This document shows, piece after piece, positions 17,360-36,016 of a stretch of 64,000 bases of DNA; the stretch's first letter is position 1, and each line of letters begins with the position of its first letter. The position numbers and the translations under genes are program-made. The notes under the pieces were generated by a model. It ran no database searches. It was not told the DNA's origin and saw only the letters and a list, made by a program, of their open reading frames with translations. Source of the stretch: Longimicrobiales bacterium (GTDB lineage Bacteria > Gemmatimonadota > Gemmatimonadetes > Longimicrobiales > Gaopeijiaceae); NCBI GenBank assembly GCA_963664435.2, contig CAXXKM010000002.1, positions 672,001-736,000 on the forward strand, in the 5' to 3' direction.

Positions 17360-17389
17360 TTGACACGCTTCGCGGGATTGCTTTACCTT
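17360..17389 (+). promoter_or_regulatory. Sigma70-type promoter of the tRNA array
   Basis: TTGACA (17360-17365), 18-nt spacer, TACCTT (17384-17389), 11 nt before tRNA-fMet. Confidence 0.65.
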
Positions 17390-17400
17390 TCGCTTCTCGT

Positions 17401-17474
<74 letters not shown>

Positions 17475-17482
17475 CTTGAAAG

Positions 17483-17504
17483 CGCCGCCGAATGGCGGCG
17501 TTTT
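17483..17504 (+). terminator. Hairpin plus short U-tract after tRNA-fMet
   Basis: CGCCGCC-GAAT-GGCGGCG-TTTT; the U4 tail is weak. Confidence 0.5.
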
Positions 17505-17560
17505 CCACGTAGCAGGACGGTTTGACGCAGGCAACAACACAGGAGACCGAGGCGAAGATC

Positions 17561-17689
17561 ATGCCGGAAGCGACCGAAATCCGTCGGCCGTGGGCCTTCC
17601 AGAGGCCGGGCCGCGCGCGGGCGCTTCGCTGGTTTCCGTCCGATACGTGGTCGAGCCCTCGCGGGCGGGGAAGCGGGACTCGCCGGTAG
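17561..17689 (+). CDS. Putative leader peptide (42 aa) MPEATEIRRPWAFQRPGRARALRWFPSDTWSSPRGRGSGTRR
   Basis: AGGAG (17541-17545) and GAGG (17549-17552) upstream of the ATG; stop lies in the loop of an anti-terminator hairpin; codons match downstream tRNAs. Below the ORF-track size cutoff. Confidence 0.5.
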   Translation: MPEATEIRRPWAFQRPGRARALRWFPSDTWSSPRGRGSGTRR

Positions 17690-17713
17690 CCCCCGGCAGA
17701 CTCCCGACCCAGC

Positions 17714-17745
17714 CGCCCGCACCGAAAAGGTTCGGGCGTTTTTTT
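17714..17745 (+). terminator. Intrinsic terminator abutting tRNA-Phe (candidate attenuator)
   Basis: CGCCCG-c-ACC-GAAAA-GGT-t-CGGGCG followed by T7 (17739-17745). Confidence 0.8.
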
Positions 17746-17818
17746 GGCCAGGTAGCTCAGTTGGTAGAGCACGCGACTGAAAATCGCGGTGTCGGCGGTT
17801 CGATTCCGCCCCTGGCCA
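17746..17818 (+). tRNA. tRNA-Phe (GAA)
   Basis: Cloverleaf; CGCGA CTGAAAA TCGCG. Confidence 0.96.
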
Positions 17819-17861
17819 TCTACCGGCTCACCGGCCGGAGGATGGCCGGGTGTGTGCGCGG

Positions 17862-17934
17862 GGGTCCGTAGCTCAACTGGTAGAGCACCGGTCTCCAAAA
17901 CCGGGGGTTGGGGGTTCGAGTCCCTCCGGGCCTG
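17862..17934 (+). tRNA. tRNA-Trp (CCA)
   Basis: CCGGT CTCCAAA ACCGG; G73. Confidence 0.95.
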
Positions 17935-17950
17935 TACAACTGGGGGGAGA

Positions 17951-18022
17951 GCCCTCATCGTCTAACGGCTAGGACACCACTCTTTCAAGGTGGCGGTCGG
18001 GGTTCGATTCCCCGTGAGGGCG
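17951..18022 (+). tRNA. tRNA-Glu (TTC)
   Basis: CCACT CTTTCAA GGTGG. Confidence 0.95.
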
Positions 18023-18052
18023 TTTGGAAGGACGCGCCAAGAGCGCGAAACA

Positions 18053-18126
18053 GGGGCTGTAGCTCAGTTGGTTAGAGTGCCGGTCTGTCACACCGGAGGC
18101 CGCGGGTTCGAGTCCCGTCAGCCCCG
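18053..18126 (+). tRNA. tRNA-Asp (GTC)
   Basis: CCGGT CTGTCAC ACCGG; G73. Confidence 0.96.
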
Positions 18127-18167
18127 CTTGTTTGTTTCTTGACAAATCGGGTCATCGGCGAAGGATC

Positions 18168-18240
18168 GGGGCCGTAGCTCAGTTGGGAGAGCGCCTGAAT
18201 GGCATTCAGGAGGTCAGGGGTTCGATTCCCCTCGGCTCCA
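18168..18240 (+). tRNA. tRNA-Ala (GGC)
   Basis: CCTGA ATGGCAT TCAGG; G3:U70. Confidence 0.96.
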
Positions 18241-18269
18241 TGGCGCAGTCTGTTCGCGAAGGCGAGCGA

Positions 18270-18354
18270 GCTCGGATGGCGGAATTGGTAGACGCGCAGG
18301 ATTCAGGATCCTGTGGGGGTTAACCCCGTGAGGGTTCGAGTCCCTCTCCGAGCA
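18270..18354 (+). tRNA. tRNA-Leu (CAG)
   Basis: CAGGA TTCAGGA TCCTG; long variable arm. Confidence 0.96.
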
Positions 18355-18403
18355 TGACAGGCCGCGGCGGCAAGCGGCGGCAGCGTTTCGATGGAGGACA
18401 TTT

Positions 18404-18487
18404 GCCCACGTGCTGGAATTGGTAGACAGGCTGGTTTGAGGGACCAGTGTCGGAAACGGCGTACAGGTTCGAGTCCTGTCGTGGGCA
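18404..18487 (+). tRNA. tRNA-Leu (GAG)
   Basis: CTGGT TTGAGGG ACCAG; long variable arm. Confidence 0.95.
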
Positions 18488-18539
18488 CTTGCCGGCCATC
18501 AACGGTCGGCCTTCCTTGCCGAAGGCGGTCGGCAAATCA

Positions 18540-18613
18540 GCGCCCGTAGCTCAATTGGACAGAGCGCTTGACTACGGATCAAGAGGTTGGGGGTTCGAGT
18601 CCTCCCGGGCGTA
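18540..18613 (+). tRNA. tRNA-Arg (ACG)
   Basis: CTTGA CTACGGA TCAAG. Confidence 0.96.
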
Positions 18614-18658
18614 TTCCCCTCCGGGGGAGGTGAAGGCCAGGACCTGTTTTCCGGCCGA

Positions 18659-18732
18659 GGGCGCGTAGCTCAGCTGGTTAGAGCGCTACGTTGACATCGT
18701 AGAGGTCAGAGGTTCGAGTCCTCTCGCGCCCA
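18659..18732 (+). tRNA. tRNA-Val (GAC)
   Basis: CTACG TTGACAT CGTAG. Confidence 0.96.
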
Positions 18733-18769
18733 TGCGCCGACGCGGCATCCGTGGAGGCGAGCAGGGGCA

Positions 18770-18842
18770 GGGGCCGTAGCTCAGTTGGGAGAGCGCAGCG
18801 TTCGCAACGCTGAGGTCAGGGGTTCGATTCCCCTCGGCTCCA
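18770..18842 (+). tRNA. tRNA-Ala (CGC)
   Basis: CAGCG TTCGCAA CGCTG; G3:U70; body identical to Ala(GGC) outside the anticodon arm. Confidence 0.96.
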
Positions 18843-18885
18843 TTCCCGGTTGGCCGGCGAGATTCGCGAGGCGGTCGGTATGGTC

Positions 18886-18958
18886 GCCACCATAGCTCAG
18901 CTGGTAGAGCACGTCACTCGTAATGACGGGGTCGTCGGTTCGAATCCGACTGGTGGCT
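18886..18958 (+). tRNA. tRNA-Thr (CGT)
   Basis: CGTCA CTCGTAA TGACG. Confidence 0.96.
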
Positions 18959-18964
18959 TGCCGC

Positions 18965-18992
18965 TTGCCAGCCGGCCTGGCGAGCGTAAAAT
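18965..18992 (+). promoter_or_regulatory. Possible internal sigma70 promoter before tRNA-Gln
   Basis: TTGCCA-N16-TAAAAT, 10 nt before tRNA-Gln. Confidence 0.5.
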
Positions 18993-19002
18993 TGGGATTG
19001 GA

Positions 19003-19075
19003 TGCCCCGTGGTGTAACTGGCAACACGTCTGACTCTGGATCAGAAGAGTCCTGGTTCGATCCCAGGCGGGGCAA
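19003..19075 (+). tRNA. tRNA-Gln (CTG)
   Basis: TCTGA CTCTGGA TCAGA; U1-A72. Confidence 0.95.
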
Positions 19076-19079
19076 TATC

Positions 19080-19165
19080 GGAGGGGTGGCCGAGTGGCTT
19101 AAGGCGGCGCCCTGCTAAGGCGTTGACCCGAGAGGGTCTCGTGGGTTCGAATCCCACCCCCTCCG
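19080..19165 (+). tRNA. tRNA-Ser (GCT)
   Basis: GCGCC CTGCTAA GGCGT; long variable arm; G73. Confidence 0.96.
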
Positions 19166-19188
19166 CTTGCGGGCGAAGCCCGCGATCA

Positions 19189-19350
19189 GAGGGGGCGTGA
19201 TTCGAACCCGGGGTTCGAGCCTCCGGTGCTTCGCATCCTCGGCTCACCTTCGGCCCGGCTGGCGCCGGCCTCGGTTGCGAATCCCGCGGGCAGATATCAC
19301 CGGGCACGGTCGCGGGCCGCTATCCGAGTCCAGGATTGAGGTTGCCGGTC
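19189..19350. repeat. tRNA-Ser(GCT)-linked repeat block (unit 1, spacer, degenerate start of a further unit)
   Basis: 19189-19209 is the reverse complement of tRNA 19143-19163 (19/21); 36-bp core 19222-19257 is identical to 19640-19675. Confidence 0.85.
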
Positions 19351-19501
19351 GGGCATCTCGTCCTGGGTTCTGAGGCCCCGGCTTCACTTCGTTCCTTGGG
19401 CGGGTTGCTTCTGACCTCGCGTCAGATATGCTCCGCTGCGGTCAAGCCGGCCGTGCTTCTCTCACCGGTTTCCCTGCAGGTTGTAGTGGCCACAATTGTT
19501 C

Positions 19502-19585
19502 GGACGGGTGGCCGAGTGGCTTAAGGCGCACGATTGGAAATCGTGTGGGCTCACGCCCACGTGGGTTCGAATCCCACCCCGTCCG
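19502..19585 (+). tRNA. tRNA-Ser (GGA)
   Basis: CACGA TTGGAAA TCGTG; long variable arm; G73. Confidence 0.96.
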
Positions 19586-19604
19586 CTGACGGCGGAGCCG
19601 CCCT

Positions 19605-19835
19605 CGGACGGGGTGGGCTTCGAACCCAGGGTTGAGCCTTCCGGTGCTTCGCATCCTCGGCTCACCTTCGGCCCGCTGGCGCGGGCCTCGGTTGCGAATC
19701 CCACCCCGGGTAGATACAACGGACACGGTAGGCGGCCGGTCTTCGAACCTAGAGTTGAGGTTGCGGGCGCTTTGCGTCCCCGGCCCGCCTTCGGCACCGC
19801 TGCGCGGCCTCTCGGCTGCGAATCCCACCCCGTCC
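19605..19835. repeat. tRNA-Ser(GGA)-linked repeat block (units 2 and 3, 123-bp period)
   Basis: 19605-19628 is the reverse complement of tRNA 19562-19585 (23/24); direct copies of the tRNA 3' end at 19695-19708 and 19819-19835. Confidence 0.88.
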
Positions 19836-19964
19836 TTGGTTCGGACGAGCTGGAGGCTTGGGAGGGCGAATCCTAGGCGCTTTCCGCCGGGGGAATCACC
19901 TTGCCGGGTGGGTGGAGCACCTGCCAATTGTTTGCATCGCCGTCTACGGGCGGTACCCACATTT

Positions 19965-20038
19965 CGGGGCGTGGCTCAGTCCGGTAGAGCGCTGCGTTCG
20001 GGTCGCAGAGGTCCCCGGTTCAAATCCGGGCGCCCCGA
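19965..20038 (+). tRNA. tRNA-Pro (CGG)
   Basis: CTGCG TTCGGGT CGCAG; C1-G72, A73. Confidence 0.96.
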
Positions 20039-20094
20039 TTTTGACAGCAGGTGGAGAGGTTTCCGTCCTCAAGCCGATCGGCCCGGTTTCGTCC

Positions 20095-20177
20095 GGAGGC
20101 GTAGTCTAATTGGTAAGGCACCGCACTCGAAATGCGGCGGGCGAAAGCCCTTGGGGGTTCGAGTCCCCCCGCCTCCG
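20095..20177 (+). tRNA. tRNA-Ser (CGA)
   Basis: CCGCA CTCGAAA TGCGG; long variable arm; G73. Confidence 0.93.
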
Positions 20178-20283
20178 CTTCCATTCCGGTGTCCGTCCCC
20201 GCGCCCTCCCATGACCAGTCGGGGCGACGATCATCACGGTCGCAGCTGGCACATGGGCATCTGATCGCCGGGAGGTCCAGGCC

Positions 20284-34092: not shown

Positions 34093-34117
34093 AGGAACTC
34101 CTGGCGCACGCCGCGGG

Positions 34118-36016
34118 TCAGAACGCGAACCCTCCCCTCTGGAAGGCAGGGTTTCCGTCCACCAGCGTGAGCAGGACCCGGTCGCCCATCTCCAGGATCC
34201 GGTCCGGCTCGCGCTCCAGCTCCCACAGGTCCTCGAGGTCGAGCACCACCAGGTCGGCGACCTTGCCGGGCTCCAAGCTGCCGGTCCAGTCATCCGAGTA
34301 GGTCAGGTAGGCGTTGTCGATGGTCATCCCGCGTAGCGCCTCCTCGAGCGTGATGATCTGCTCCGGTCCATGCTGGTCTCCCCAGAGATCCGTGCGCGTG
34401 AGCATGGCGTAGAGTCCGATCCAGGGACTGTACGGCGAGGTGCCGTAGTCGGAGCCCACCGCGATGCGCACCCCGGAGTCCAGGTAGCTGCGCATCGGCT
34501 TCAGGCGGGCCATGCGCCCGGGGCTCAGGTTGGCGGAGAAGGAGCGGCCCTGGTGGTAGATGAACGACGGGTTGACGGCTGCGATGATGCCGTAGTCGGC
34601 CATCTTCTCGAGGACGCTGGTCTCCTCTTCCATGGGCAGGTAGGCGTGGATGACGCTCCAGCGCAGATCGGCGTCCGGGTCCTCGGCCCGGATGGAGTCC
34701 ATCAGCTTCGCGAAGATGTCGACCGTCTGCTTCATGCCCAGATCGCCGGTCGAGTGGATGTGCGGTTCCCAGCCGCGGTCGACGGTCGGGCGCAGCTGCG
34801 CCTCGCGCACATCGTCCTCCACCCAGTGGTAGCCGTGGTTGGGCTCGCCCTCGATGCTCTCCCAGTCCACGAAGGGCACGGACACCCATGAACTGCGTGT
34901 GCCGGCCCCGCCGTCGATCTGCCACTTGGTGCCGCGCCAGCGCAGGAAGCGGTCGCCCAGGTTGTTGAAGGGGAGGGCGGCGAAGTGGGCGTCGATCTCC
35001 TCCGGGGACTGGGTGTTCCACATGCCCTCGTATACCTGCAGGATGCGGAAGTGCAGCAGGCCGCGGTCGCGGGCGTCCTGGTAGGGGCGCATCACCCGGC
35101 CGCCTCCACCGGGGTCCACGATGGCGGTCACGCCCAGGCTGGTCATCTCGCGGCTGCCGTAGTCGATGGCGCGCAGCTGGGCCTCGTAGTCGCGCTGGGG
35201 CGGGTTCACCGTCACCAGCCGCGTCGCGTTCCCGAGGAACATCCCGGTGGGCACTTCCACCTCGCGGGTCTGCCCGTCCACCGTCAGCGTGCGCATCTCG
35301 CGGAAGACCCTGTCCTCGTAGTTGAACCAGTCCAGGTCCTGGAGCCACCAGTCGGGCCAGGTGGAGGAGTCGGAGTCGTCGATGCCCATCAGGCGGAAGG
35401 CGGCCGTGTTGACCGCGACGCCGCGATAAACCCGGCCCAGCCGGAGCGGATTGTCGGGCGTGTGCTCGTCGAGTTGCCAGCGGGTGAAGGGCCTCTCGTA
35501 CTTGTGCTCGTCCCATCCGCGGCTCGTGACCCACTCGCCGGGCTCGGGGTCGAGGCGCTCCATCAGGTCGGCGATCAGCTGCACGATCTCTTCGGTGCTC
35601 ATGGCGTAGCGGAGGTCGTTCTCGAATTCCGCCTCGATCCCCAATTGTGAGAAATGGAGGTGGGAGTCGATCAGGCCGGGCAGGACGACGCGTCCCCCCA
35701 GGTCGGTCACGCGCGTGTCCGGGCCGGCAAGGGCGAGAACCTCCTCGTCGGTGCCGACCCGCATGATCTCGGACCCGCCTGGACTCCGGCGCCAGGCGAT
35801 GGCCTGGGCGACCGAGAAGTCGTCGTCGACGGCGGCGACCTGTCCGTTGTGCAGGATGCGGTCGGGCGTCGCCGCGCCCGTGGACGCACCCTGCCCGCAC
35901 GCGGCCGCCCCGAGCAGCAGGACGCTGGCGAGGAGCGCGGCAAGAGGGCTGCCCCGGTCGAGGGGGAGGCGGATGTCCGGGCGCCCGGGCGAGCGGTCGG
36001 GTCTGGATGCGTGCAT
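34118..36016 (-). CDS. Amidohydrolase 3 (YtcJ-like) lipoprotein
   Basis: PGLIDSHLH, KWQIDG, HIHSTGD, HAY, GSD, GSLEPGKVADLVVLD; GAAAC lipobox-like. Confidence 0.88.
   Translation of the reverse strand: MHASRPDRSPGRPDIRLPLDRGSPLAALLASVLLLGAAACGQGASTGAATPDRILHNGQVAAVDDDFSVAQAIAWRRSPGGSEIMRVGTDEEVLALAGPDTRVTDLGGRVVLPGLIDSHLHFSQLGIEAEFENDLRYAMSTEEIVQLIADLMERLDPEPGEWVTSRGWDEHKYERPFTRWQLDEHTPDNPLRLGRVYRGVAVNTAAFRLMGIDDSDSSTWPDWWLQDLDWFNYEDRVFREMRTLTVDGQTREVEVPTGMFLGNATRLVTVNPPQRDYEAQLRAIDYGSREMTSLGVTAIVDPGGGGRVMRPYQDARDRGLLHFRILQVYEGMWNTQSPEEIDAHFAALPFNNLGDRFLRWRGTKWQIDGGAGTRSSWVSVPFVDWESIEGEPNHGYHWVEDDVREAQLRPTVDRGWEPHIHSTGDLGMKQTVDIFAKLMDSIRAEDPDADLRWSVIHAYLPMEEETSVLEKMADYGIIAAVNPSFIYHQGRSFSANLSPGRMARLKPMRSYLDSGVRIAVGSDYGTSPYSPWIGLYAMLTRTDLWGDQHGPEQIITLEEALRGMTIDNAYLTYSDDWTGSLEPGKVADLVVLDLEDLWELEREPDRILEMGDRVLLTLVDGNPAFQRGGFAF

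What the first reader, a model, noticed from the sequence alone, without database searches (positions are those of the whole stretch)
17541..17818. Candidate ribosome-mediated attenuator gating a 16-tRNA array, with a leader peptide that samples the array's own codons
Seen in sequence: (i) a U7 intrinsic terminator (17714-17745) ends one base before tRNA-Phe, so the downstream tRNAs (at least up to the possible internal promoter at 18965) need read-through. (ii) A long competing hairpin can form: GCGGGCGG 17661-17668 pairs with CCGCCCGC 17713-17720 (the terminator's 5' strand), with inner helices CGGGA 17674-17678/TCCCG 17702-17706 and GCCGG 17682-17686/CCGGC 17693-17697. (iii) An SD-led 42-codon ORF (17561-17689) runs through the 5' arm, and its TAG lies in that hairpin's apical loop. 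(iv) Codons 21-32 (GCG CTT CGC TGG TTT CCG TCC GAT ACG TGG TCG AGC) are twelve consecutive codons all read by tRNAs of this array, including one codon for each of the three Ser isoacceptors and ACG for Thr(CGT). Over codons 2-32, 25 of 31 are array-decoded and 14 of the 16 downstream tRNA species are sampled; only Leu-CAG and Val-GAC are missing. Established: this is the geometry of trp/his/phe-type attenuators, which control amino-acid biosynthesis and synthetase genes. Inference: a ribosome reaching the stop codon melts the anti-terminator and allows termination, while slow decoding upstream of about 17645 lets it form and transcribes more tRNA. That would be a feedback loop on tRNA supply, which I do not know to be described. 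Caveat: the array reads about 26 of 61 codons, mostly GC-rich ones, so some enrichment is expected by chance.
Basis: partly seen in the sequence, partly recalled or inferred. Interest (0 to 1): 0.9.

Follow-up and report, generated by a model that had tools for sequence, protein, structure and literature searches.

The report
Leader-peptide switch before tRNA operon
A tiny translated gene and a stop/go RNA hairpin sit between the initiator tRNA gene and sixteen other tRNA genes in many Gemmatimonadota, and they probably let the pace of translation set how much of these tRNAs is made.

Summary
The element is not peculiar to this genome. A covariance model built from it matched 65 of 151 genomes (41 of 81 genera) of the same family. 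Record titles place that family in Gemmatimonadota. Every strong match that I fetched lies in the tRNA-fMet to tRNA-Phe spacer.

The ORF is kept as a gene. Its length is constant within classes (24, 30 or 42 codons). ATG/GTG/TTG and TAG/TAA/TGA interchange at fixed places. Synonymous changes are about twice as frequent in its frame as in the other two. The core is W-x-x-x-D-T-W-S-(S)-P.

A single conserved promoter lies upstream of tRNA-fMet, and the terminator abuts tRNA-Phe. Sole-copy tRNAs therefore depend on read-through.

The claim that the leader samples the array's own codons is weak in this genome alone (P=0.18, 0.03 and 0.08). It is suggestive across the family (86% against a 59% background).

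No expression or bench data exist. What the switch senses is open. This scan has noted similar leader-plus-terminator elements before tRNA arrays on other DNA, mostly phages; I did not check those notes. I found no published description.

The parts
17360..17389 (+). Promoter of the operon: -35 TTGACA (17360-65), 18-nt spacer, -10 TACCTT (17384-89), about 11 nt before tRNA-fMet
   Evidence: Read. TTGAC(A/C) plus a TAnnnT-type -10 sits at the same place in nearly all of the 60 relatives listed, by my reading and not counted. The consensus scan covered this stretch and did not report it, because its -10 falls short of that scan's TATAAT threshold.
17401..17475 (+). tRNA-Met(CAT) with initiator features: a 1:72 mismatch and three G-C pairs in the anticodon stem
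   Evidence: The initiator features were read and rest on recalled criteria.
17482..17504 (+). T1: a G+C hairpin with a short U run directly after tRNA-fMet. It is a weak terminator or a processing or pause hairpin.
   Evidence: It is conserved and predicted by RNAalifold in 17 genera with 2 compensatory pairs. Transcription must pass it, because in the 24-codon class only 55-78 nt lie between T1 and the conserved Trp codon.
17505..17520 (+). CCACGU (17505-10) and GGACGG (17515-20): possible 5' arm of a long-range helix with leader codons 26-30
   Evidence: The hexamer is conserved and complementary to ACGUGG. The evidence for real pairing is mixed.
17541..17552 (+). Shine-Dalgarno region (AGGAG 17541-45, GAGG 17549-52)
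   Evidence: Most relatives have an SD-like motif before the in-frame start.
17561..17689 (+). Leader ORF, 42 codons: MPEATEIRRPWAFQRPGRARALRWFPSDTWSSPRGRGSGTRR, stop TAG
   Evidence: constant length, interchange of start and stop codons, and an excess of synonymous changes in this frame.
17624..17659 (+). Candidate sensor window, codons 22-33 (L R W F P S D T W S S P), with the conserved Trp 17630-32, Asp 17642-44, Thr 17645-47 and Trp 17648-50
   Evidence: W at -6 in 58 of 65, D in 64 of 65, T in 59 of 65, W in 65 of 65. The window is 86% array-decoded. The rare codons GAT, TTT and TCT are over-used relative.
17655..17666 (+). Local 1:2 hairpin: GCCC 17655-58 with GGGC 17663-66
   Evidence: 99.3% of cells are paired in 23 genomes, with one compensatory U-A in L065. 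The pause role is inferred.
17661..17720 (+). Antiterminator: arm 2 17661-68 pairs with arm 3 17713-20 and encloses the inner hairpin 17674-17706, which has TAG 17687-89 in its loop
17714..17745 (+). T2: an intrinsic terminator (stem 17714-38, U7 17739-45) that abuts tRNA-Phe
   Evidence: 60 of 61 relatives. Compensatory pairs are shown. The distance to tRNA-Phe has a median of 3 nt.
17745..20178 (+). Array of 16 tRNA genes: Phe, Trp, Glu, Asp, Ala, Leu, Leu, Arg, Val, Ala, Thr, Gln, Ser, Ser, Pro, Ser
   Evidence: The order is conserved across the order of bacteria.

Best explanation
This is a ribosome-mediated (leader-peptide) transcription attenuator inside a tRNA operon.

Shown by sequence and comparison. 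One conserved promoter drives tRNA-fMet. The transcript continues through a weak hairpin (T1) into a short leader ORF with a ribosome-binding site. The second half of that ORF forms arm 2 of an antiterminator, and its stop codon lies inside the antiterminator. Arm 3 of the antiterminator is also the 5' arm of a strong U-rich terminator (T2). T2 ends 0-8 nt before tRNA-Phe in most relatives.

Inferred. If no ribosome has passed arm 2 when arm 3 is made, 2:3 forms, T2 cannot form, and RNA polymerase reads into the 16 tRNA genes. This happens when the leader is untranslated, or when the ribosome is slowed at the conserved W-x-x-x-D-T-W-S-P codons just upstream. If a ribosome keeps pace and is on or beyond arm 2, or sits at the stop inside the loop, 2:3 cannot close. 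Then 3:4 forms and transcription stops.

The sensor codons are read by tRNAs of the array. Trp and Asp are read by sole-copy genes, and several of the codons are rare wobble codons. So the most likely signal is the decoding speed supplied by the operon's own tRNAs. That would make a negative feedback of tRNA supply, or of translational capacity, on the transcription of about a third of the cell's tRNA genes. The initiator tRNA upstream would escape this control.
For: Anatomy. The antiterminator state is -48.5 kcal/mol and the terminator state -48.1 kcal/mol over 17651-17746, so the switch is iso-energetic.

Conservation. Model R1 matched 65 of 151 family genomes, in 41 of 81 genera. All 24 new loci that came with that call lie between tRNA-Met and tRNA-Phe, as do 27 of 31 further regions. 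The 4 misses were the weakest hits.

The ORF is kept. All 24 and 25 of 27 carry an in-frame ORF with the D-x-W core. Class lengths are 24 codons (12 of 12), 30 (7 of 7) and 42 (10 of 10). The start is ATG x3, GTG x6 and TTG x3 at one position, and stops are TAG, TAA or TGA. Synonymous shares of codon differences are 29%, 45% and 37% in frame, against 12-26% in the other two frames.

Terminator: a hairpin plus at least 4 U in 60 of 61. Compensatory pairs are 77:100 U-A x3 and 78:99 U-A x2.

Antiterminator: the nascent-RNA MFE pairs at least 5 of 7 terminator-core bases with ORF bases in 54 of 60, and in 56 of 60 when the upstream RNA is included. 87% of cells are paired, and L065 has linked changes in arms 1, 2 and 3.

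Footprint folds. With the stop in the A site the terminator forms in 58 of 60. With Asp in the A site the antiterminator forms in 39 of 60.

Dependence on read-through. The U run ends a median of 3 nt before tRNA-Phe. The only conserved promoter is upstream of tRNA-fMet. 13 of the 16 array anticodons occur once in the genome.

Sensor. W, D, T and W are near-invariant. Positions -8 to +2 are 86% array-decoded (618 of 715), against 49% downstream and 59% in genes. GAT is used in 44 of 64 Asp codons against 21% in genes, TCT in 18 of 62 against 3%, and ACG in 50 of 59 against 37%.

Weak hint of co-transcription. In two RNA libraries of one study, contigs from a relative that differs at 15 positions and 5 gaps over about 375 nt bridge 17422-17795.
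Against: There is no transcript-end, ribosome-profiling or genetic evidence. The RNA-library contigs could be DNA carry-over.

In this genome alone the codon match to the array is not significant. Family-wide counts are not independent. The same bases are constrained by the helices and by a peptide conserved at the amino-acid level, which a pure codon sensor does not need.

A 30-nt footprint with the stop in the A site (17672-17701) leaves arm 2 (17661-68) uncovered. Blocking of 2:3 then rests on the ribosome sitting inside the loop, which is an assumption.

With Trp30 in the A site the equilibrium fold gives the terminator in 38 of 60. For the window's own sequence the fold gives the terminator at every stall position tried. 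The case therefore rests on kinetics that I cannot compute.

One genome of the same genus (G006, L015) has lost the ORF but keeps T2. Genus g65 (0 of 20 by R2) and family f2 have terminator-like hairpins in the same spacer without any ORF. So read-through can happen without a leader, and the leader is dispensable.
Confidence: 0.6

Rival explanations
1. Same switch, different signal. It reads general transcription-translation coupling, such as ribosome or initiation capacity or growth state, and not the supply of particular tRNAs. The conserved codons are there for the peptide or the RNA, not as sensors.
For: The default (untranslated) fold is the antiterminator in 56 of 60. The Shine-Dalgarno and start lie between the conserved CCACGU and its complement ACGUGG and may be occluded. 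The codon match is not significant in the window.
Against: Two near-invariant Trp codons in a 24-codon peptide, against 1.6% Trp in genes. Rare wobble codons are over-used exactly in the window before arm 2.
Confidence: 0.15
2. The conserved peptide is an arrest peptide. The nascent chain W-x-x-x-D-T-W-S-P-R-x-R-A-G stalls the ribosome in response to a small molecule or a ribosome-targeting compound, as TnaC or Erm leaders do, and the stall sets terminator or antiterminator choice.
For: Amino-acid conservation along the whole 24-residue peptide. Thr is kept through ACG, ACC and ACA. The invariant Trp lies 11-12 residues before the C-terminus in 56 of 60 (W0-to-stop 39 or 36 nt). A W-x-x-x-D spacing and an R-x-R motif recall TnaC and macrolide-arrest motifs; this is recollection, not tested.
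Against: No Pfam or NCBIfam leader family matches. S-P-R-x-R-A-G is encoded by the 1:2 and 2:3 helix arms, so RNA can explain it. A stall at the stop would favour termination, which is an odd logic for tRNA genes. TnaC works through Rho, whereas this terminator is intrinsic.
Confidence: 0.12
3. It is a small-protein gene with its own leaky terminator lodged in the tRNA operon. The peptide acts in trans or not at all. T2 simply sets a fixed ratio of initiator tRNA to elongator tRNAs.
For: Relatives without any ORF also carry terminator-like hairpins between tRNA-Met and tRNA-Phe. The ORF was lost in G006 while T2 was kept.
Against: This does not explain why arm 2 inside the ORF is complementary to the terminator's 5' arm in 54-56 of 60. 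It does not explain why the stop always lies between arms 2 and 3, or why the two states are iso-energetic.
Confidence: 0.08
4. It is an RNA-only element, such as a processing platform or structured spacer of the tRNA precursor. The ORF is a by-product of G+C-rich sequence.
For: Open frames are common at 67% G+C. Third codon positions are highly conserved in the core. Helices overlap most conserved codons.
Against: Start codons interchange among ATG, GTG and TTG, and stops among TAG, TAA and TGA, at fixed positions. Length differences come in multiples of 3 between classes. Synonymous changes are about twice as frequent in the ORF frame. An SD-like motif precedes the in-frame start in most relatives.
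Confidence: 0.05

Closest known systems
Leader-peptide attenuators of amino-acid operons (trp, his, pheA, thr, leu, ilv) and of pheST
   Same: A short translated leader, mutually exclusive antiterminator and terminator hairpins, a local 1:2 hairpin, candidate control codons just upstream of arm 2, and an intrinsic terminator directly before the regulated genes. pheST shows that a gene of the translation apparatus can be controlled this way (recalled).
   Different: The regulated genes here are tRNAs, not enzymes or a synthetase. The leader is the 3' trailer of an initiator-tRNA precursor. The candidate control codons are mixed (Trp, Asp, Thr, Ser, Pro, Phe) and not a run of one amino acid. The stop lies inside the 2:3 loop and not before arm 2. 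The untranslated default looks like read-through and not super-attenuation. No Rfam leader family matches.
T-box riboswitches
   Same: They are terminator/antiterminator switches that report on tRNA status.
   Different: A T-box binds uncharged tRNA directly, has no ORF, and controls synthetase and amino-acid genes. No T-box match was found.
TnaC and other regulatory arrest peptides
   Same: A short conserved leader peptide with key Trp and Asp residues. The 24-codon class has the same length as TnaC (recalled).
   Different: No family match. The terminator is intrinsic and not Rho-dependent. Spacing to the C-terminus differs. Arrest is untested.
Promoter-level growth-rate and stringent control of rRNA and tRNA operons (ribosome feedback idea; recalled)
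   Same: It links translational capacity to tRNA synthesis.
   Different: That control acts at initiation through ppGpp and NTP levels. Here a cis-encoded leader would couple a translating ribosome directly to elongation of the tRNA transcript.
Leader-plus-terminator elements before tRNA arrays noted earlier in this scan (mostly phages)
   Same: The same idea: a short ORF, a switchable terminator and a tRNA array.
   Different: Those are unrelated sequences (one search found no look-alike) and unchecked AI notes. This one is chromosomal, heads the main housekeeping tRNA operon, and is conserved across dozens of genera.

Membership tests
Ribosome-mediated (leader-peptide) transcription attenuator | A short ORF with a ribosome-binding site in the transcribed leader, kept by selection | tested here: met
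Ribosome-mediated (leader-peptide) transcription attenuator | An intrinsic terminator between the leader and the regulated genes, with no promoter after it | tested here: met
   The U run ends 0-8 nt before tRNA-Phe in most relatives.
Ribosome-mediated (leader-peptide) transcription attenuator | An antiterminator that uses the terminator's 5' arm and a segment that the ribosome occupies | tested here: met
Ribosome-mediated (leader-peptide) transcription attenuator | Control codons cognate to the product of the regulated genes, placed so that a stall frees arm 2 | tested here: inconclusive
   weak in the window; suggestive family-wide; Asp stall gives the antiterminator in 39 of 60; Trp stall in 19 of 60
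Ribosome-mediated (leader-peptide) transcription attenuator | Read-through responds to translation of the leader | not testable with these tools
   Needs Term-seq, reporters or coupled in vitro assays
Rfam leader and riboswitch families (Trp, His, Thr, Leu leaders; T-box) | Match to the covariance model | tested here: not met
   Searches (gathering thresholds; E up to 10): only three chance-level matches to unrelated small RNAs
TnaC-type leader peptide | Match to the Tna_leader family, and a W...D...P-stop motif followed by a Rho-dependent spacer | tested here: not met
   Searches found no Pfam match. The peptides end mostly in Arg, and an intrinsic terminator follows.

The most novel reading that the evidence does not exclude
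The main housekeeping tRNA operon of a large part of the Gemmatimonadota measures its own output. A leader peptide written in codons read by the operon's own, mostly single-copy tRNAs (Trp, Asp, Thr, Ser, Pro, Phe, partly as slow wobble codons) is translated from the trailer of the initiator-tRNA precursor. The speed of that translation decides, at a bistable antiterminator/terminator, how many polymerases go on to make 16 elongator tRNAs. This would be a direct cis-acting homeostat of tRNA supply. It would also set the ratio of elongator to initiator tRNA.
Probability: 0.35. Interest if true: 0.9.

Novelty: new variant of a known kind. Interest (0 to 1): 0.8.

Why it matters
How bacteria match tRNA supply to translational demand is usually explained by promoter-level control through ppGpp, NTP levels and growth rate. 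A conserved leader-peptide attenuator inside a tRNA operon would be a direct, cis-encoded link from decoding speed to tRNA transcription. It would extend a textbook mechanism from amino-acid supply to the supply of the adaptors themselves. It is directly testable with reporters, coupled in vitro systems and Term-seq. It is present in dozens of genera, which gives natural variants to work with: ORF-less relatives and three peptide classes. It would also show an mRNA function for the trailer of a tRNA precursor.

Tried and rejected
1. Phage origin of the array. blastn against phage records found only single-tRNA similarities. The flanking genes are ordinary chromosomal enzymes.

2. Known RNA families. 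There were none at gathering thresholds. At E up to 10 there were only three chance-level matches.

3. Known protein families for the peptides. There were none in Pfam or NCBIfam.

4. My recollection that E. coli pheU and pheV carry an attenuator-like leader. The K-12 sequences show plain promoters directly upstream and no leader ORF. I dropped this.

5. A second long-range helix ('b') next to CCACGU:ACGUGG. By eye it seemed to covary in several genera. But cognate 5'/3' segments are no more stable than non-cognate ones overall: mean -10.4 against -9.7 kcal/mol, and the cognate is better than its non-cognate mean in 30 of 56. The ACCUGG class keeps CCACGU without a compensating change. The long-range pairing is therefore not established.

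6. A second copy of the element next to tRNA-Lys in related records. These were chance matches inside a coding region.

7. Weak R2 matches in families f2 and f3 and a second match in this genome. 10 of the 12 that I fetched are ordinary gene ends or coding DNA. That leaves f2 at 0 of 50 and f3 at 2 of 50 true.

8. The search for related loci with the peptide alignment or the 42-residue peptide was not possible, because the alignment was too little conserved and the peptide too short.

9. Parts of the laid stretch without cover in runs X22 and X23, and the small word shares of the other RNA runs, say nothing.

10. Literature. Seven searches turned up no paper on a leader-peptide attenuator of tRNA genes. 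I saw only listings and abstracts, plus passages of PMC3082878, which were not relevant.
Full report
WHAT IS THERE. The window is part of a 4.5-Mb, 67% G+C bacterial chromosome. Ordinary metabolic genes flank the site. From 17401 to 20178 lie 17 tRNA genes on one strand. The first is tRNA-Met(CAT) with initiator features. Then comes a 269-nt spacer, then Phe, Trp, Glu, Asp, Ala, Leu, Leu, Arg, Val, Ala, Thr, Gln, Ser, Ser, Pro, Ser.

In the whole genome ARAGORN finds 55 tRNA genes. 13 of the 16 array anticodons occur only here, among them Phe, Asp, Glu-TTC and Arg-ACG. The second 'Trp' at 34103-34172 is 70 nt long and Rfam does not call it. The array is therefore essential housekeeping equipment.

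THE OBSERVATION.
- The terminator stem 17714-17738 folds at -16.7 kcal/mol (z -2.6).
- U7 (17739-45) abuts tRNA-Phe.
- The competing hairpin 17661-17720, with two inner helices and TAG 17687-89 in its apical loop, is the minimum-energy fold of 17655-17746 (-48.8 kcal/mol, z -2.6).
- When each state is forced in turn, the antiterminator state (-48.5) and the terminator state (-48.1) are iso-energetic. That is what a kinetic switch needs.
- The ORF 17561-17689 has GAGG 8 nt upstream of its ATG.
- The codon counts (25 of 31, a run of 12, 14 of 16 tRNAs) reproduce.

CHANCE. The array reads 26 codons that make up 59.3% of codon usage in 1548 long high-GC3 ORFs of this genome. Against 20,000 windows of 41 codons taken from those ORFs, 28 of 41 gives P=0.18, the run of 12 gives P=0.03, and 14 species gives P=0.08. 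Taken alone, the 'samples its own codons' pattern is close to what any gene here would show.

COMPARISON.
- The same array order holds across the order of bacteria.
- In the same genus, 13 of 14 complete spacers keep a 42-codon ORF of identical length, with the stop 54-55 nt from tRNA-Phe. One genome (G006, L015) has lost the ORF but keeps the terminator.
- A covariance model of the 3' half (R1) matched 65 of 151 genomes of the family, in 41 of 81 genera.
- All 24 new loci returned with that call lie between tRNA-Met and tRNA-Phe.
- Of 31 further matches that I fetched, 27 do as well. The 4 that do not were the weakest.
- A broader model (R2) on an order-level sample matched 20 of 50 in the family, 4 of 50 in f2 and 5 of 50 in f3. 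On inspection, the f2 matches and three f3 matches were ordinary gene ends. That leaves 0 of 50 in f2 and 2 of 50 in f3.
- One well-sampled genus of the family (g65) had 0 of 20. Four of five g65 spacers checked carry terminator-like hairpins, and none carries this ORF.
- Six f2 spacers are 55-57 nt long, a hairpin with a U run and about 20 nt. One of them, L022, is from G025, which is marked unpublished.
Nearly all of those whose titles were listed are labelled Gemmatimonadota, Gemmatimonadales, Longimicrobiales or Gemmatimonadaceae. Two carry other labels.

THE ORF IS A GENE.
- All 24 and 25 of 27 spacers have an in-frame ORF, most with an SD-like motif, around a shared core W-x-x-[A/S/T]-D-T-W-S-(S)-P-R-x-R-A-G...stop. 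The two exceptions have S-M-W and D-T-R in its place.
- Three classes have fixed lengths: 24 codons (12 of 12), 30 (7 of 7) and 42 (10 of 10).
- In the 24-codon class the start is ATG x3, GTG x6 and TTG x3 at one position. Stops are TAG, TAA or TGA.
- Synonymous shares of pairwise codon differences are 29%, 45% and 37% in the ORF frame. In the other two frames they are 15% and 14%, 26% and 12%, and 17% and 18%.
- Thr before the invariant Trp is kept through ACG (50), ACC (7) and ACA (2).
- No Pfam or NCBIfam family matches.

THE SWITCH IS CONSERVED.
- A G+C hairpin plus a run of 4-9 U is present in 60 of 61 spacers. L016 has a poor U run. I dropped four near-identical rows before this count.
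- The U run ends a median of 3 nt (range 0-33) before tRNA-Phe.
- In the 23-genome alignment A6, terminator cells are 92.6% paired, with compensatory U-A at two pairs. Antiterminator cells are 87% paired. The local 1:2 hairpin is 99.3% paired. Sliding the partners by 1-3 columns drops overall pairing from 79-86% to 35-60%. Most columns never vary, so covariation proper is modest. L065 carries linked changes in arms 1, 2 and 3.
- The MFE of the nascent RNA, before arm 4 exists, pairs at least 5 of 7 terminator-core bases with bases inside the ORF in 54 of 60. With the upstream RNA included the figure is 56 of 60.
- The stop always lies between arms 2 and 3. It is strictly in a hairpin loop in 34 of 60.

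HOW IT MOST LIKELY WORKS.
- Shown: one conserved promoter (TTGAC-N17/18-TAnnnT) lies just upstream of tRNA-fMet in nearly all relatives listed. The consensus scan does not report it.
- In the 24-codon class only 55-78 nt separate T1 from the invariant Trp, and these hold the Shine-Dalgarno and the first 12 codons. The leader must therefore be transcribed through T1 as the trailer of the initiator-tRNA precursor.
- No room for a promoter exists between T2 and tRNA-Phe.
- Inferred: an untranslated or slowly translated leader folds 2:3 and polymerase reads on. A ribosome that keeps pace occupies arm 2 or the interior of the 2:3 loop, so 3:4 forms.
- Footprint-constrained folds agree in direction. 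With the stop in the A site the terminator forms in 58 of 60. With Asp in the A site the antiterminator forms in 39 of 60. With Trp in the A site the antiterminator forms in only 19 of 60, because a +14 footprint already touches arm 2.
- The 1:2 hairpin may act as a pause that synchronises ribosome and polymerase, as in trp (recalled; untested).

WHAT IS SENSED. The 11 codons from -8 to +2 around the invariant Trp are 86% array-decoded (618 of 715 in 65 sequences). The rest of the ORF is 49% and genes are 59%. Trp at -6 (58 of 65), Asp (64 of 65), Thr (59 of 65) and Trp (65 of 65) are near-invariant, while Trp makes up 1.6% of residues in genes. Rare wobble codons are over-used there: GAT in 44 of 64 against 21%, TCT in 18 of 62 against 3%, and TTT against 8%. 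This fits a sensor tuned to the operon's own tRNAs. But the rows are related, and RNA and peptide constraints act on the same bases.

AGAINST, AND OPEN.
- There are no expression data. Two RNA-library contigs of one study, from a relative that differs at 15 positions and 5 gaps over about 375 nt, bridge 17422-17795. That span runs from tRNA-Met through T1, the leader and T2 into tRNA-Phe. It is only a weak hint, because DNA carry-over is possible.
- With the stop in the A site a 30-nt footprint (17672-17701) does not cover arm 2. Equilibrium folds of the window's own leader give the terminator at every stall position tried. The model therefore rests on kinetics and sterics that I could not compute.
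- The conserved CCACGU after T1 is complementary to the Thr-Trp codons ACGUGG, and RNAalifold predicts the pair. But the ACCUGG class shows no compensating change, and the flanking helix fails a cognate-against-non-cognate test. The long-range pairing is unproven, and so is my idea that it makes read-through the fail-safe default.
- ORF-less relatives show that the leader is dispensable.

KNOWN OR NEW. It works like the trp, his, pheA and pheST attenuators. It is not a member of any Rfam leader family, of the T-box family or of the TnaC family. Seven literature searches (listings and abstracts only, plus passages of PMC3082878) found no account of a leader-peptide attenuator of tRNA genes. My recollection of one at E. 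coli pheU/pheV was wrong.

Earlier notes of this scan describe the same idea before tRNA arrays of other genomes, mostly phages. They are unchecked, and their sequences are unrelated to this one.

VERDICT. This is a new variant of a known kind of control. The interest is high because it is conserved, because it gates a third of the cell's tRNA genes, and because it can be tested directly.

Noticed in passing
window 19167-19501 (and the same gap in L004, L009, L010, L012-L014): The gap between tRNA-Ser(GCT) and tRNA-Ser(GGA) holds one or two copies of a roughly 100-nt unit with T-arm-like strings (TTCGAACCC, GCGAATCCC). Its length varies from 164 to 430 nt among genomes of the genus and is 45 nt in another genus. 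It may be a decayed or unusual tRNA-like repeat. Rfam gave only a weak mascRNA-like match at 19175-19232 (E 0.38).
   Followed up: partly
window 18965-18992: There is a promoter-like TTGCCA-16-TAAAAT between tRNA-Thr and tRNA-Gln. TTGCCA is kept in the genus but the -10 drifts. In other genera the two tRNA genes are 0-8 nt apart, so an internal promoter, if real, is specific to this genus.
   Followed up: partly
window 34103-34172 (-): ARAGORN calls a 70-nt tRNA-Trp(CCA) here, which Rfam does not report at its gathering score. It is probably a false call or a pseudogene.
   Followed up: no
L103-L107 (genus g65) and L021, L022, L028-L031 (family f2): Relatives that lack the leader ORF mostly keep one or two terminator-like hairpins with U runs between tRNA-fMet and tRNA-Phe, some only about 20 nt before tRNA-Phe (one of the five g65 spacers, L104, shows none by eye). 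Partial termination between the initiator tRNA and the elongator tRNAs may be the older, general feature.
   Followed up: partly
L015 (G006, same genus): This is a natural ORF-loss variant. There is no start and no D-T-W, and the frame stays open into tRNA-Phe, but the terminator is kept. The post-T1 hexamer and its partner changed together: CCGCGU with GCGCGG in place of CCACGU with ACGUGG.
   Followed up: partly
window 19555-19637: A long, nearly perfect palindrome overlaps the 3' end of tRNA-Ser(GGA) and runs about 50 nt beyond it. It shows up as weak matches to unrelated hairpin families on both strands.
   Followed up: no
L024, L226 (family f3): More distant leaders in the same spacer keep a D-S-W core. 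L024 has Tyr and Gly right after the Trp. The f3 arrays seen (L018, L023, L024, L027) include Gly and Tyr tRNAs that the f1 arrays lack. L226's array was seen only as far as Glu.
   Followed up: no
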